Under the pieces are notes generated by a model. That model was given only the letters and a program-made list of their open reading frames with translations, was not told the DNA's origin and did not search any database. 64,000 bases of DNA from Octopus vulgaris (taxonomy: Eukaryota), in assembly GCA_951406725.2 (NCBI GenBank), contig OX597835.1:28520001-28584000 (forward strand). The letters are read 5' to 3'. Below, one piece after another: positions 37,281 through 59,220 of the stretch. The position numbers and the translations under genes are program-made. How positions within the stretch are numbered: position 1 is the stretch's first letter; every line of letters begins with the position of its first letter.

Positions 37281-37516
37281 TCACAGCCTTCTTTTTAAAC
37301 AGATTTTGAAAGGTTTTGGCCGTATGGTCAAACCAGCTCGACCTGTAACGTCTGGTAGTGGTTCGCCTTTGGGGCATGTGAATACAAAGTTCGTTACTAG
37401 GTAGGCACAGAACATGAAAATTTCCATTTTTGCTACGGAGGAGCCGACACAAACTCGATGTCCCAAACCAAAAGGGAGGTAACTCTTGCCTTGATCTTGC
37501 GGATCCAGGAATCTTC
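37281..37516 (-). CDS. Cytochrome P450 (CYP17A1-like), last coding exon with heme-binding motif
   Basis: tttcccaatag acceptor; RRFLDPQDQGKSYLPFGLGHRVCVGSSVAKMEIF...KPFKICLKRRL*; FxxGxRxCxG motif; FNPRRF (PERF variant) formed across the splice junction. Confidence 0.96.
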
Positions 37517-38194
37517 CTATTGGGAAAAAGCAGAAGAAAAATGTTTATTAATTAAAGCAGTGACAAATAAGGATGTGTGTGTGTGCGTGTATACGCATAC
37601 ATACATACATATATACATACATACATACATACATACACACATACATACATACATACATACATACATGCATGCATACACACATACATACATACATACACAC
37701 ATACATGCACACATACCTACATACATACATACACACATACATGCACACATACATACACACATACATACACACATACATACATACATACATACACACATGC
37801 ACACATGCACACATACATACACACATACCTACATACATACATACATACATACACACACACACACACATATATATATATATATATATATATATATATATGT
37901 GTGTGTGTGTGTGTGTGTGTGTGTGTGTGTGTGTGTGTGTAGCCCTATATTTCACTCCCCTACGACAAAACTACGAATCTTTTTTCGGCAGTACTATTTT
38001 GTGACTCACATGGTAGAAAACATTTTGGTGGGAAGTACGAATTCACTTGTCTATATAAATGTGGATATGTGGATATGCTGATTAGCTTTTATATGTTCCA
38101 ATGATGCTTGGTCGGAAATATAAGGGGTAAGTTTTCCTAGCATTTCTAGATTTATTTATATATATATATATGTGTGTGTGTGTGTATGTTTATA

Positions 38195-38405
38195 TGCTTG
38201 TGTGTCTGTGCTTGTCCCCCCAACATCGCTTGAGAACCGATGCTGGTGTGTTTACGTCCCCGTAACTTAGCAGTTCGGCAAAGGAGACCGATAGAATAAG
38301 TACTAGGCATACAAAGAATAAGTCCTGGGGTCGATTTGCTCGACTAAAGGCGGTGCTCCAGCATGGCCGAGAGTCAAATGACTGAAACAAGTAAAAGAAT
38401 AAAAG
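38195..38405 (+). mobile_element. SINE A 3' half
   Basis: Consensus match. Confidence 0.85.
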
Positions 38406-38414
38406 AGTGAGAAG

Positions 38415-39378
38415 AACTCGGTGCTATTATCTTCGTGAAGAATACAATTCTTCGCGCTCCACAGATCCGGCCGTTTTCGCCGCATGTTCTCCCTTAAACG
38501 CTTCAAAATGTTGCAGTCGAACTGTCGATTGACGGTCTGGCCCTGTAGGATGAATCCTCGATGCACGATACCACATTTCTGGGTACTGACGTTCCTGGCA
38601 TTTCTTATTTCTTTATTGCCCACAAGGGGCTAAACACAGAGGGGACAAACAAGGACAGACAAACGGATTAAGTCGATTACATCGACCCCACTGCGTAACT
38701 AGTACTTATTTAATCGATCCCGAAAGGATGAAAGGCAAAGTCGACCTCGGCAGAATTTGAACTCAGAACGTAACGACAGAAGAAATACCTATTTTTTTAC
38801 TACCTACAAGGGGTTAAACACAGAGGGGACAAACAAGGACAGACATACGGATTAAGTCTATTATATCGAGCCCAGTGCGTAACTGGTACTTATTTAATCG
38901 ACCCTGAAAGGATGAAAGGCAAGGTCGACCTCGGCGGAATTTGAACTCAGAACGTAGCGGCAGACGAAATACAGCTAAGCATTTCGCCCGGCGTGCTAAC
39001 GTGTTTGCCAGATCGCTCACCGTCTCCGAGGGACGTTCTACCGCTCTTGAAGCACCCATGCCATTCGAAACATTATGTACGACCCATTGTCTCGTGACCG
39101 TAAGCTTGCCAAAGCATGCTCAATGTCTCTCTGTAGCAAACGTCCCAAGTTTAACGCAAAATTTCACGTTGACTCTTTGTTCCAACTTCCTGCCCAAGAC
39201 AAAATTGCAGACCACAGCATACACGTGATTACAAAAAAACAAATTTCACAACTTGCAGAGTAAACACAGCGTTGTCACTCATGAAGGTCACTGCTATCTC
39301 TTACTGCGCACGCAACTGTGTGCTGCCTTCTGTTGGCACGCTACAGATCTAGTCCGGGAATGTTTTGATACCACCTCA
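38415..39378 (-). mobile_element. Mariner transposon relic interrupted by a SINE B dimer (38605-39010)
   Basis: TIR tatgaggtggtatcaaaacattcccggac; N-terminal QRVNVKFCVKLG..CFEWHGCFKSGRTSL; catalytic part GIVHRGFILQGQTVN..LKRLRENMRRKRPDLW..ILHEDN. Confidence 0.85.
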
Positions 39379-39463
39379 TATTTATGTGTGCATGCGTGTG
39401 TGCGGACCACCTAAATCAACAGCCATAACAACAATAAAAATCTAACCCCACTGGTATACTCAC

Positions 39464-39567
39464 GTGGATTGAACGTGTATGAGTCCTCCCATACATTTGG
39501 ATCATGGTGTATTGCCCAGATGTTCAGTATTACCATACTGTCTTCAGGAATGTGGTACCCCCGAACT
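39464..39567 (-). CDS. Cytochrome P450 (CYP17A1-like), exon, 104 nt
   Basis: tattccag acceptor and gtgagt donor; VRGYHIPEDSMVILNIWAIHHDPNVWEDSYTFNP; phases 2/1 fit both neighbours. Confidence 0.95.
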
Positions 39568-55982: not shown

Positions 55983-56349
55983 AGGCATTTATTCCTTTGT
56001 ATACACACATACGTGCACAATCGTTTCTGTCTGCAATTTTGAGGGTAATGGGGAGCGGGGTTAGTCGCTATCATCGATTTCAGCTCATAACTGGTAGTCC
56101 TGAAGGGTGAAAAGTAACGTTCATCTTACCAGGATTTGAACTCTCAACCAAACCGAAAAATACCAGTCATGTACTGAGTCTGTAGTATAGATTAACCCAT
56201 TTTCAAGAAATTGGTGGCCTTGTGCCTATTATGGAAGCAGTTATTATGAATTCCGTTTTTCTAACTAAGAAACAAATTTTTAAAATATTTCGTATTTGTA
56301 TTTGGTTTACAAGATCCTTGATGTGAATTCGCGTGCTGAAATATATTTT

Positions 56350-56742
56350 GTTGTATTTCGGGAGAGTCATTATGCCAATAATAAACACACGCACTGGTTC
56401 TATTTCACTTCTTTATTATGTATGTCAATTGGTTAACTATGTAACTAGTTGACTAACCGATTGTTTGATTAATCATTTGGTTAATCGATCCATCAGATAC
56501 GTTCAGACAAGGCAGACCTGAAACTGACTTGGAGTAGAGAGGGCTGGTCATTGAAGAGGTCGCGAATGGCGACAAAAAGACTCATGCAAACACAAATGAT
56601 TGATTGAGTAACTGAATGATTAATCAAACAGTCGATTAGTTAGCTGCTTAAACAGTCAACCAATTGACGAATAATAAGGAAGTGAAATTGAACCAGTGCG
56701 TGTGTTTGTCATTGGCATAACGACGCTCCCGAGATACTACAA
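56350..56742. mobile_element. MITE/fold-back element with ~140-nt imperfect arms
   Basis: ttgtatttcgggagagtcattatgccaat..acacacgcactggttc pairs with gaaccagtgcgtgtgt..attggcataacgacgctcccgagatactacaa. Confidence 0.75.
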
Positions 56743-57169
56743 AATTTTTAATATGAAAGCCCACACATTTTACCTGGGGACGTATCATGAGATTGAATTA
56801 CAACCAACCATGCCATTTGGTTGTGATTTTTCGTTCTTTAATACCAAGTAAGCCTTAAGTGAGTTGACTTATGATCAAAGGCATTACATCTTTTTTGGTC
56901 TATTACTAAGACAACCTTAGTCAACAAATATCGTAAAGTTTCTAAAGTGTTGGGCTGATTTAAGGCCTGGGTTCTCAGGCAACGGGCCGAGGATAATCTA
57001 TTTTTCTGTTATTTCTATTTTATTAATTATCAAGGTCTGCAGAATGTTTTTGCATAATAAATGCAACGTATATTGTATTATATATGTAATGTATATATTT
57101 TTTTCTCCGATGACGGAATATATAATCCTAATTTTCAAAAAGATAAACAAGAGTTATTGCTCTAATTAC

Positions 57170-58410
57170 AAAGGAACCTCCTCGCTAAGCCTCTCCGGTA
57201 AAGTATGCAGGGAATCTGGCAGAGAGATATATTGATATTGACGAGTGCAAGCTACCTGACGAATAACGTGGTTTTTACCCCGGACGCAGCGCAGCCGACC
57301 AAATATTCACACTGCAACAAGTCTTCGCGAAATCATGCGAGTATGTCCATCAGGTGTATGTAGACCTCGGAAAGATATACGATAGTGTTTCCCGGGATGT
57401 TTTCTGGAAGATTCTACAAGAATATGGAATCGATGGCCTTAAAGTCCCTATACGAACGCACTATTATTTGTTTCGGATAGATGGTTCTAAACCGTAACCG
57501 TCTAAGGTGGGTGTCGGACTCCACGCAGGGTGCATACTATTACCTTTTCTGTTCATAATCTTCATGGACAGGTTTGACCTGTGTAGCCGATTTGGAAGTA
57601 ATATCAAGACCGGCGGATGTACGATCAGTCGGCTGAAATTTGCAGACAACATAGTACTACTACTCGACTCATCGATATGCACTTGACAGGTTTGGTGACG
57701 AGTTGCACTCGGCAGGAATGAAAATCAGTGCAGTGAAGGTTGAGACATACGTCTACATGTAAGTGGAGTTCCACTAAAGCAGGTGGAGAGTTCCAAGTAT
57801 TTTGGGAACGCTTTCAAGAGTGATGGAGGGCAGGGGAGTGAACTGAGTGCAAAAAAATGTAAGAGCTGGTGCAGTAATGCTCAAATTTCAGCATTCGATC
57901 ATCAGAAAAACGAAAGGTGTCAAAACCAAACGCGCTCTCTTCACTTCGGTGTTAGTACCTATCCTAACCTAGAGTAAGGAATCTTGGGTAATGATTAAAA
58001 AACTACAATCGCGAATACAGTCGGCAGAAATGGAGTTCATCCAAAGAGTCTTTGGAGTAGCGTTACTCGAGAGAGAGCGTAATTCGGAAATCAGAAAGGT
58101 GCTCCAGGTAGAGCCATTACTTTACCGAATTTAGAGAGCACAGCTCCGAAACAACGGACATAGGGTAAGAAAGTACCCGGAAAGAATCGCTAGACAAATT
58201 TTATGGATTCAAAAACCCAATCTGCAGGAGACCCAGAGGCAGGCGGCGAACGAAATGATTGGATAACATCTGTGAGCTCGGCTGGTTTCGCTTGGGGGAT
58301 CTAGCCGCTTCTGAGAAAGCCTGGTGGAAGGCGTGCTTGAGGACTCTACCCTCAAGGCCCTTCCAAGAGTAAGTGAGCGAAGAGGAGATGAGATGAGATG
58401 AGATAAGATG
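57170..58410 (+). mobile_element. Degenerate RTE LINE 3' part with (GAGAT)n tail
   Basis: DQIFTLQQ, VDLGKIYDSV, LFIIFMD, LKFADNIVL, FKYFG-like remnants; many stops. Confidence 0.8.
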
Positions 58411-59133
58411 AGTTGGAATAGATCTTTGCTATATCTCATTTTCCCTCCGATGACGGAAGACGTTGCTGATATATAGATAGTTACCACTTGCTTTTTACAA
58501 CATGCAGCGTCTGCGCATCTGTTCTTGAAACAGCTGTAGGAAACTTTCCCCACACTTATTTACATCTTCATTTCTTGTGATTTATGCTCATGTAACCTAA
58601 CCTAACCTGATGCCGGGTGTTTTGCCTTTTAGTACTTTTACCCTAATATGCTTGTATATGCTCAGTTGATAAACTTTATAGACTGTTGCCAAAGCTATGA
58701 CGTCTTTGCTTTAAATCGCAGTTCAAATTGAAGTTTTAGCGATATTAAGTGAGATGTATTATATATGTAATATATATGAATTATATATATAATAAATGAG
58801 CATTTTATCGTTTTGTTATGCACATTATCTTCCGGTTCGTGGAAAAATTGTCTTGCATAAAACAGGTTCGTGGTGCAGAAAAAGGGTAGGGGACAGCTGA
58901 TTTAAGAGACACAAACATTGAGAGCTATTTCAGGCGGGTAAGTGACCATACAGACCTCGTACCCTCGACAGAGAGGGGTCAACGATGTTATATAAATTGG
59001 CTTTTGCTTCTTTTTAATCATGTTATTAACCGAGATGCGAACGCGCTTCGTTGCAGGCAGTAAGCCTGCCCCCAACTTAGACACATCACAAGTCAACATT
59101 ATAAAATAGAATAAAATAAAAACGAAAACTTAC

Positions 59134-59220
59134 TCTGTGTTCCTTTATAACGTCTGCCATCCAAATGTCCTTGGTTTCCAAGCTTTTTTTGAACCGGGTC
59201 CAACTGGGAATCGGGAATGC
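59134..59220 (-). CDS. Cytochrome P450 (clan 2, CYP17A1-like), internal exon (F-G/G-helix region), 87 nt
   Basis: ttttcag acceptor and gtaagt donor; phase 0/0; translates AFPIPSWTRFKKSLETKDIWMADVIKEHR and continues in frame into ETL.. of the next exon. Confidence 0.85.

What the first reader, a model, noticed from the sequence alone, without database searches (positions are those of the whole stretch)
37281..59220. Cephalopod-type P450 sharing the exon architecture of vertebrate steroidogenic CYP17A1
Seen: coding exons of 87, 210, 170, 104 and 236 nt, joined by introns of phase 0, 0, 2 and 1. From memory, human CYP17A1 exons 4-8 are 87, 216, 170, 104 and 284 nt, and the I-helix (LFGGGIESTTMTILW vs IFGAGVETTTSVVKW) aligns. 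Inference: shared intron positions argue for real CYP17-lineage ancestry rather than generic clan-2 similarity. That bears on the disputed question of whether molluscs make steroids de novo. Orthology would not prove 17-hydroxylase/lyase activity.
Basis: partly seen in the sequence, partly recalled or inferred. Interest (0 to 1): 0.7.

Follow-up and report, generated by a model that had tools for sequence, protein, structure and literature searches.

The report
Octopus P450 with ancestral CYP17/CYP21 introns
This intact octopus P450 gene has exactly the five introns shared by the two human steroid enzymes CYP17A1 and CYP21A2, so it likely descends from their common ancestor and likely modifies a steroid-like lipid, but it does not show that molluscs make sex steroids from scratch.

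Summary
Observation confirmed: five minus-strand exons (87, 210, 170, 104, 236 nt; phases 0, 0, 2, 1). The missing 5' part is one 738-nt exon 86 kb upstream, not three; contigs of 4 of 4 runs laid carry that splice. The 514-aa protein belongs to a conserved mollusc family (Argonauta 93%, chiton and bivalves 52-57%) already auto-named 'CYP17A1-like' at NCBI. All 5 introns match human CYP17A1 introns 3-7, but equally CYP21A2 introns 5-9; the gene has none of the 2 CYP17-only or 4 CYP21-only introns. 0 of 17 introns in four other octopus clan-2-like genes match. So the introns mark the CYP17/CYP21 lineage, not CYP17A1 itself. Two trees place the family in the CYP17/21 group (100/93, 96/89), but its position inside moves and AU tests reject none of 7 placements. 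Identity to chordate CYP17 is 28-36%; N202, F114, T306, I371 and V483 are replaced. It is separate from the multi-copy bivalve and abalone genes also named 'CYP17A'. Likely a steroid or sterol monooxygenase with its own reaction; silent on de novo synthesis, which hinges on CYP11A1.

The parts
59221..64000 (-). Window part of intron 1 (86,443 nt in all; phase 0, at human CYP17A1 codon 222 and CYP21A2 codon 217). It leads to coding exon 1, which lies outside the window at G000:C22:28665664-28666401 (L009:1664-2401, minus strand): 738 nt, residues 1-246, membrane anchor, proline hinge and helices A-F, spanning human CYP17A1 exons 1-3 without introns
   Evidence: Pfam P450 1-199; GT donor in phase 0; contigs of 4 of 4 runs continue from its donor into window 59219-59190; collinear with Argonauta P0002; lengths; position
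59134..59220 (-). Coding exon 2, 87 nt, residues 247-275 (equals CYP17A1 exon 4, CYP21A2 exon 6)
51090..51299 (-). Coding exon 3, 210 nt, residues 276-345, holds the I helix (CYP17A1 exon 5, CYP21A2 exon 7)
51135..51167 (-). I-helix core E320-T330; acid-alcohol pair is Glu327-Ser328 (human E305-T306)
46537..46706 (-). Coding exon 4, 170 nt, K-helix ExxR and substrate site 5 (CYP17A1 exon 6, CYP21A2 exon 8); ends in phase 2
39464..39567 (-). Coding exon 5, 104 nt (CYP17A1 exon 7, CYP21A2 exon 9); ends in phase 1 inside the PERF-type motif
37281..37516 (-). Coding exon 6, 236 nt with stop; heme-binding loop 37443-37472, Cys459 at 37449-37451

Best explanation
This is an intact six-exon, 514-residue P450 gene whose five introns are exactly those shared by human CYP17A1 and CYP21A2, so it is likely the mollusc descendant of their common ancestral gene and likely hydroxylates an endogenous steroid or sterol by a reaction other than the vertebrate 17-hydroxylase/lyase pair. 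Shown: exon structure, the splice across the 86-kb first intron, intron identity, one locus found in this genome, 52-93% identity across cephalopods, a chiton and bivalves. Inferred from family knowledge: an ER membrane anchor, electrons from NADPH-P450 reductase, Cys459-ligated heme, oxygen activation through Glu327-Ser328. Inferred from parsimony: the CYP17/21 ancestor had these five introns and predates the mollusc-vertebrate split; vertebrate CYP17 and CYP21 gained their 5' introns later. Least certain: the substrate. Low copy number and slow change suggest a housekeeping or endocrine role; the glycine-rich I helix, kept E305, V366 and a basic residue at R239 fit a flat steroid nucleus, while changes at F114, Y201, N202, T306, A367, I371, V482 and V483, fixed or nearly fixed across the molluscs, reshape the pocket.
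For: 5 of 5 introns map to CYP17A1 codons 222.0, 251.0, 323.0, 380.2, 415.1 (boundaries; 753 recalled) and to CYP21A2 codons 217.0, 246.0, 313.0, 373.2, 408.1 (boundaries; numbering by hand through). 0 of 17 introns of four other G000 genes match. 4 of 4 truncated relatives apparently called on genomic contigs (one chiton-like, three bivalve-like) run unbroken from Met to the same first-intron site, so the fused first exon is not an octopus oddity. Careful trees: inside the CYP17/21-plus-cnidarian group at 100/93 and 96/89. 5 of 5 chordate CYP17 references score best against this gene among five octopus models. Top PDB matches by sequence are zebrafish Cyp17a1/a2, by fold zebrafish 17A1. An Octopus maya transcript annotated CYP17A1 peaks in the oviducal gland at fertilization (PMC8976471; identity with this gene untested).
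Against: AU tests under LG+F+G4 reject none of 7 placements, including with CYP1 (p 0.26), CYP2 (0.19) or the other 17-like family (0.39). With plant outgroups FastTree pulled the family to the root. Human CYP1A1 outranks human CYP17A1 by sequence and fold. Intron controls cover only four octopus genes; CYP1, cnidarian and bivalve multi-copy families were not testable. No activity or tissue data were obtained. Only 5 diagnostic columns side with CYP17 or CYP17/21 against 2 with CYP1/2.
Confidence: 0.58

Rival explanations
1. It is the true mollusc orthologue of chordate CYP17 and still 17-alpha-hydroxylates progesterone or pregnenolone, perhaps with lyase activity.
For: Sister to amphioxus plus vertebrate CYP17 in the mixture-model tree (84/74) and best-scoring constrained tree (p-AU 0.72). 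E305, V366, R347, G301 kept; lysine at R239, R358, R449. Progesterone is reported as an octopus mating cue with steroid enzymes expressed in ovary and oviduct (bioRxiv 2025.10.28.685082; CYP17 not named in its text).
Against: Support is below the starred threshold and the second tree puts it outside CYP17 plus CYP21. Neither CYP17-only intron is present. N202, which hydrogen-bonds pregnenolone and progesterone (PMC6027421), is Ile or Val in 8 of 8 molluscs but Asn, Ser or Thr in 9 of 9 chordate CYP17; F114, W121, T306 and I371 are invariant in chordates and differently invariant in molluscs. Identity 28-36%.
Confidence: 0.17
2. The ancestry is CYP17/21, but the enzyme acts on a non-steroid endogenous molecule (fatty acid, eicosanoid, pigment or other small lipid).
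For: Bulkier residues at A367, I371 and V482 and a CYP1-like Leu-Thr at 482-483; cnidarian relatives of CYP17/21 are expanded and thought unlikely to be all steroidogenic (PMC8110760); homologous enzymes need not share substrates (PMC12965858).
Against: Both characterised branches of the lineage are steroid hydroxylases (established knowledge); several steroid-pocket and redox-surface residues are kept.
Confidence: 0.18
3. The five introns are older than the CYP17/21 lineage, and this is an independent clan-2 family that merely kept them.
For: AU tests do not reject other placements; the family sits on a long stem branch (0.77-1.13); many cnidarian relatives have few introns, so loss elsewhere is plausible.
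Against: Four other octopus clan-2-like genes carry a different, partly shared intron set (human-numbered 111.1, 187.2, 289.1, 438.1) and none of the five; vertebrate CYP1A and CYP2 introns lie elsewhere (recalled); two trees give starred support for the CYP17/21 group.
Confidence: 0.07

Closest known systems
[quoted passage not shown]
   Same: One clade at 100/100; 93% to Argonauta, 52-57% to chiton and bivalves; same I-helix motif; same unbroken first exon where visible.
   Different: Nothing essential: this gene is a member. The names are source annotations; I saw no test of activity.
Vertebrate and amphioxus CYP17 (human CYP17A1, zebrafish Cyp17a1/a2)
   Same: Five intron positions and phases (human); best scores among five octopus models; G301, E305, R347, V366, heme ligands kept.
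   Different: Lacks introns 1 and 2; 28-36% identity; F114M, W121L, Y201I, N202I, R239K, T306S, A367L, I371F, V482L, V483T.
Vertebrate CYP21A2 (steroid 21-hydroxylase)
   Same: The same five introns (its introns 5-9); Ile at the N202 position and Gly at the A302 position, as in frog and caecilian CYP21.
   Different: Lacks its introns 1-4; 31% identity; Gly rather than Ile at G301; never its sister in free trees.
Multi-copy bivalve and gastropod 'CYP17A-like' family (Mytilus coruscus CYP17A P0351, Pecten P0175, Haliotis P0350, Nucella P0349)
   Same: Clan-2 P450s carrying the same database name.
   Different: A separate clade (100/99) outside the CYP17/21 group, with hemichordate and amphioxus relatives; about 30% identity; Asp..Asp instead of Glu..Glu in the I helix. 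Their introns were not examined.
Cnidarian CYP3094/CYP3349-type genes basal to CYP17/21 (PMC8110760)
   Same: Nematostella, Hydra and Sanderia rows fall in the same wider group in both careful trees; their match to those family numbers is my inference.
   Different: Expanded and mostly intron-poor; not the sister of this family in either tree.

Membership tests
Microsomal cytochrome P450, clan 2 | Heme-cysteine loop, K-helix ExxR, I-helix acid-alcohol pair, N-terminal anchor and proline hinge, P450 fold | tested here: met
   Motifs; hydrophobic N-terminal window 2.4; Argonauta orthologue model pLDDT 91, TM 0.84 to zebrafish 17A1; 52 of 55 PDB sequence matches are CYP17, 1, 2 or 21, the last 3 are plant P450s.
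CYP17/CYP21 lineage | The five intron sites common to CYP17A1 and CYP21A2 | tested here: met
   5 of 5; CYP17A1 c.753 recalled but the same site is documented in CYP21A2 (c.738).
CYP17/CYP21 lineage | Groups with CYP17 and CYP21 to the exclusion of CYP1 and CYP2 | tested here: inconclusive
   Starred in two careful trees, but AU rejects no alternative and plant outgroups pull it to the root.
CYP17 (CYP17A1) | More than 40% identity to named family members (nomenclature rule, PMC8110760) | tested here: not met
   27.8-36.4% to nine chordate CYP17.
CYP17 (CYP17A1) | Introns after c.297 and c.436 | tested here: not met
   Exon 1 is unbroken here and in 4 of 4 truncated ORFs of relatives. Whether amphioxus CYP17 has them was not testable.
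CYP17 (CYP17A1) | One clade with chordate CYP17, excluding CYP21 | tested here: inconclusive
   84/74 for; against; p-AU 0.72 versus 0.57 for CYP17 plus CYP21 without it.
CYP17 (CYP17A1) | Polar residue at N202 contacting the steroid C3 oxygen | tested here: not met
   Ile or Val in 8 of 8 molluscs; role from PMC6027421.
CYP17 (CYP17A1) | Lyase-linked residues E305, V366, R347, R358 | tested here: inconclusive
   E305, V366, R347 kept, Lys at R358; but R358 varies among chordate CYP17 and these residues also occur in other clan-2 rows.
CYP17 (CYP17A1) | [quoted passage not shown] | not testable with these tools
   Needs a recombinant assay.
CYP21 | Introns after c.202, 292, 447, 549 and clade with vertebrate CYP21 | tested here: not met
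   None of the four introns; not sister in free trees, though AU does not reject it (p 0.15).
Multi-copy mollusc 'CYP17A-like' family | Clade with Mytilus CYP17A, Pecten and Haliotis paralogues | tested here: not met
   Separate 100/99 clade; about 30% identity.

The most novel reading that the evidence does not exclude
This low-copy family, not the multi-copy genes usually called mollusc 'CYP17A', is the real protostome co-orthologue of CYP17 and CYP21, preserves the six-exon structure of their ancestor, and still hydroxylates progesterone or pregnenolone in octopus reproductive glands, so steroid-modifying chemistry of this lineage predates the protostome-deuterostome split.
Probability: 0.2. 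Interest if true: 0.8.

Novelty: new member of a known kind. Interest (0 to 1): 0.45.

Why it matters
Whether lophotrochozoans have orthologues of vertebrate steroidogenic enzymes is disputed (PMC13012086 reports the earlier 'none' view and challenges it), and protein trees alone are too weak here. The intron set is an independent character that picks one conserved mollusc family out of at least two carrying the 'CYP17A1-like' label, and suggests the exon structure of the CYP17/CYP21 ancestor. It names one enzyme to assay. It does not close the CYP11A1 gap, so it cannot by itself show de novo synthesis of vertebrate-type steroids.

Tried and rejected
Three separate upstream exons: rejected. 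Pseudogene or mis-joined exons: rejected, open frame, spliced contigs and a collinear Argonauta protein. A close paralogue in this genome: none among 84 of 97 candidates scored (a lower bound). Single-sequence fold failed (pLDDT 37) and was not used. The FastTree tree with plant outgroups (146 of 147 rows kept) was set aside as likely long-branch attraction but is reported as a result against. The mixture-model AU test did not finish and was replaced by LG+F+G4 tests on short constrained searches. After the set was cut from 61 to 49 rows, dropping among others two long-branch octopus rows; the Owenia row was dropped. No RNA holder listed, so tissue and level are unknown; the joints between exons 2-6 were not checked with reads. 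Four look-ups of earlier scan findings returned nothing. Four paper look-ups failed (Wang 2022 twice, Nelson 2013, Markov 2009). I did not search this genome for a CYP11A1-like gene, having no suitable query, and did not test synteny; no other gene was evident among the window's long open frames.
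Full report
Observation. The five exons are there, on the minus strand: 59134-59220 (87 nt), 51090-51299 (210), 46537-46706 (170), 39464-39567 (104), 37281-37516 (236 with stop). All four introns are GT-AG, phases 0, 0, 2, 1, and the joined frame is open for 268 codons. The window is G000:C22:28520001-28584000. A Pfam search of the genome found the N-terminal half as one exon at C22:28665664-28666401, ending at a phase-0 GT donor 86,443 nt upstream of the window's first exon. 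Contigs from 4 of 4 runs laid (four studies; RNA by guess only) cover that exon, stop at its donor and continue with window bases 59219-59190; they are 1.56-1.80 kb long. The gene therefore has six coding exons, 514 codons and spans 109 kb.

Family. The protein is 93% identical to an Argonauta hians protein, 82% to an unnamed protein from a short contig and 52-57% to chiton and bivalve proteins. [quoted passage not shown] No close paralogue appeared in this genome among 84 of 97 candidates scored. A profile search added only mollusc-like members; no named gastropod or annelid member was found, which is weak evidence because the search is word-limited. Four truncated relatives, apparently called on genomic contigs, run unbroken from Met to the same first-intron site and then read into Val-Ser, Val-Arg or Val-Lys, as a donor would, so the fused first exon appears ancestral in molluscs.

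Introns. Projected on human CYP17A1 (P0300), the five introns fall at codons 222.0, 251.0, 323.0, 380.2 and 415.1. Human boundaries c.297, 436, 666, 969 and 1139 come from variant names in PMC5450854 (passages) and c.1243 from PMC9532611 (passages); c.753 is recalled. They match CYP17A1 introns 3-7 exactly; chance is 4e-13, or 1e-5 with only 50 usable sites. All nine CYP21A2 boundaries are in the variant tables of PMC7609334 (passages). Numbering the 5VBU chain by hand from those variants and bridging through frog CYP21, CYP21A2 introns 5-9 fall on the same five sites and phases, while its introns 1-4 and CYP17A1 introns 1-2 do not coincide with each other. The octopus gene holds exactly the intersection. 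As a control I modelled four other clan-2-like genes of this genome (C25, C3, C15, C11): 0 of 17 introns match, the nearest being 4 nt away; they share other sites (111.1, 187.2, 289.1, 438.1). CYP1, cnidarian and bivalve multi-copy genes could not be checked; that vertebrate CYP1A and CYP2 introns lie elsewhere is recalled.

Trees. With 49 rows and a mixture model the mollusc family is monophyletic (100/100), lies in a CYP17, CYP21, cnidarian, echinoderm and annelid group (100/93) and is sister to chordate CYP17 at only 84/74. With 54 rows, LG+G4 and the long Owenia row removed it is in the same group (96/89) but outside CYP17 plus CYP21 plus the invertebrate rows (91/93). AU tests reject none of seven placements: with chordate CYP17 p 0.72, CYP17 plus CYP21 without it 0.57, with the invertebrate rows 0.47, with the other 17-like family 0.39, CYP1 0.26, CYP2 0.19, CYP21 0.15. 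Plant outgroups drew it to the root. So the protein signal leans toward the CYP17/21 group without proving it, and the introns carry most of the weight. Five of five chordate CYP17 references score best against this gene among five octopus models; frog CYP21 ties with the C25 gene. The Mytilus 'CYP17A', Pecten, Haliotis and Nucella proteins form a separate clade (100/99) outside the group.

Mechanism. Shown in sequence: hydrophobic N-terminus, proline hinge, ExxR, heme Cys459, acid-alcohol pair Glu327-Ser328. The Argonauta orthologue models confidently as a P450 (pLDDT 91), nearest zebrafish CYP17A1 then human CYP1A1, which is not discriminating. Inferred: an ER monooxygenase fed by P450 reductase. 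Against human CYP17A1, G301, E305, R347, V366 and I205 are kept, R239, R358 and R449 are Lys, and F114M, W121L, Y201I, N202I, T306S, A367L, I371F, V482L, V483T are fixed or nearly fixed in eight molluscs. PMC6027421 (passages) gives N202, E305 and V366 as active-site residues and R347 and R358 as redox-partner residues; the roles of the other positions are recalled. I commit to a steroid or sterol hydroxylase with a reaction of its own (0.58); classical 17-hydroxylation 0.17; a non-steroid substrate 0.18; unrelated clan-2 family 0.07.

Literature. PMC12965858 (passages): CYP17A1 homologues reported in bivalves, CYP11A1 absent, homology not proof of substrate. PMC5375646 (passages): side-chain cleavage shown only in vertebrates. 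PMC13012086 (passages and supplement hits): an annelid cyp17a1/2 is used to challenge the view that lophotrochozoans lack such orthologues. PMC8976471 (passages): an Octopus maya 'CYP17A1' transcript peaks in the oviducal gland. bioRxiv 2025.10.28.685082 (passages; its supplements were not seen and may be relevant): progesterone as octopus mating cue. PMC8110760 (passages): cnidarian families basal to CYP17/21. PMC3184775 (passages): amphioxus has Cyp17, not Cyp21. PMC4076195, PMC6620563, PMC12350143 and PMC2276477 (passages) added nothing decisive; PMC9468450 was seen as a listing only. In the listings of searches I saw no paper comparing mollusc CYP17-like intron positions, but most subscription papers are not in the library.

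Verdict. A real, ordinary-looking P450 already labelled CYP17-like in relatives. The new part is that its introns equal the CYP17A1-CYP21A2 intersection, which singles this family out from other mollusc 'CYP17A' genes as the best candidate co-orthologue. It is not a CYP17 by identity or by CYP17-only introns, its activity is untested, and it does not answer whether molluscs make steroids de novo. Interest 0.45.

Noticed in passing
P0175, P0197, P0346-P0358; supplement 7 of PMC13012086: Several mollusc proteins named 'steroid 17-alpha-hydroxylase-like' or 'CYP17A' (7 placed in the tree) form a different clade outside the CYP17/21 group. The published Platynereis data file gave 0 hits for this family's I-helix motif, and the Platynereis and one oyster sequence shown look by eye like the other family.
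   Followed up: partly
P0139 (Apostichopus) and G000:C15:38476601-38489132: Both share with this family Leu for the C-helix Trp (W121), Glu at D298 and Ser at T306; kinship or convergence unknown. The C15 gene has four exons and an unstable long branch.
   Followed up: partly
G000:C11:12.48-12.89 Mb; C5:120.6-120.9 Mb; C26:0.7-2.5 Mb; C15:39.7-39.8 Mb: Tandem clusters of P450 genes, in contrast to this lone gene. The C11 gene modelled has a GC donor at its first intron.
   Followed up: partly
G000:C7:3392079-3393689 (L025): A P450 encoded in one uninterrupted open frame of 537 codons.
   Followed up: no
window 51325-51480: A 41-nt unit repeated 3.8 times at 98% identity, 25 nt upstream of the exon 3 acceptor.
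   Followed up: no
window 57267-57494 (+); 13503-13844, 20639-20890, 26210-26587 (-): Transposon relics: a weak reverse-transcriptase match inside intron 2 (below cut-off) and Tc1/mariner-type HTH and DDE fragments downstream of the gene.
   Followed up: partly
G000:C22:28666401-28666425 (L009:2401-2425): A second in-frame ATG eight codons upstream of the start shared with Argonauta; laid contigs extend beyond both.
   Followed up: no
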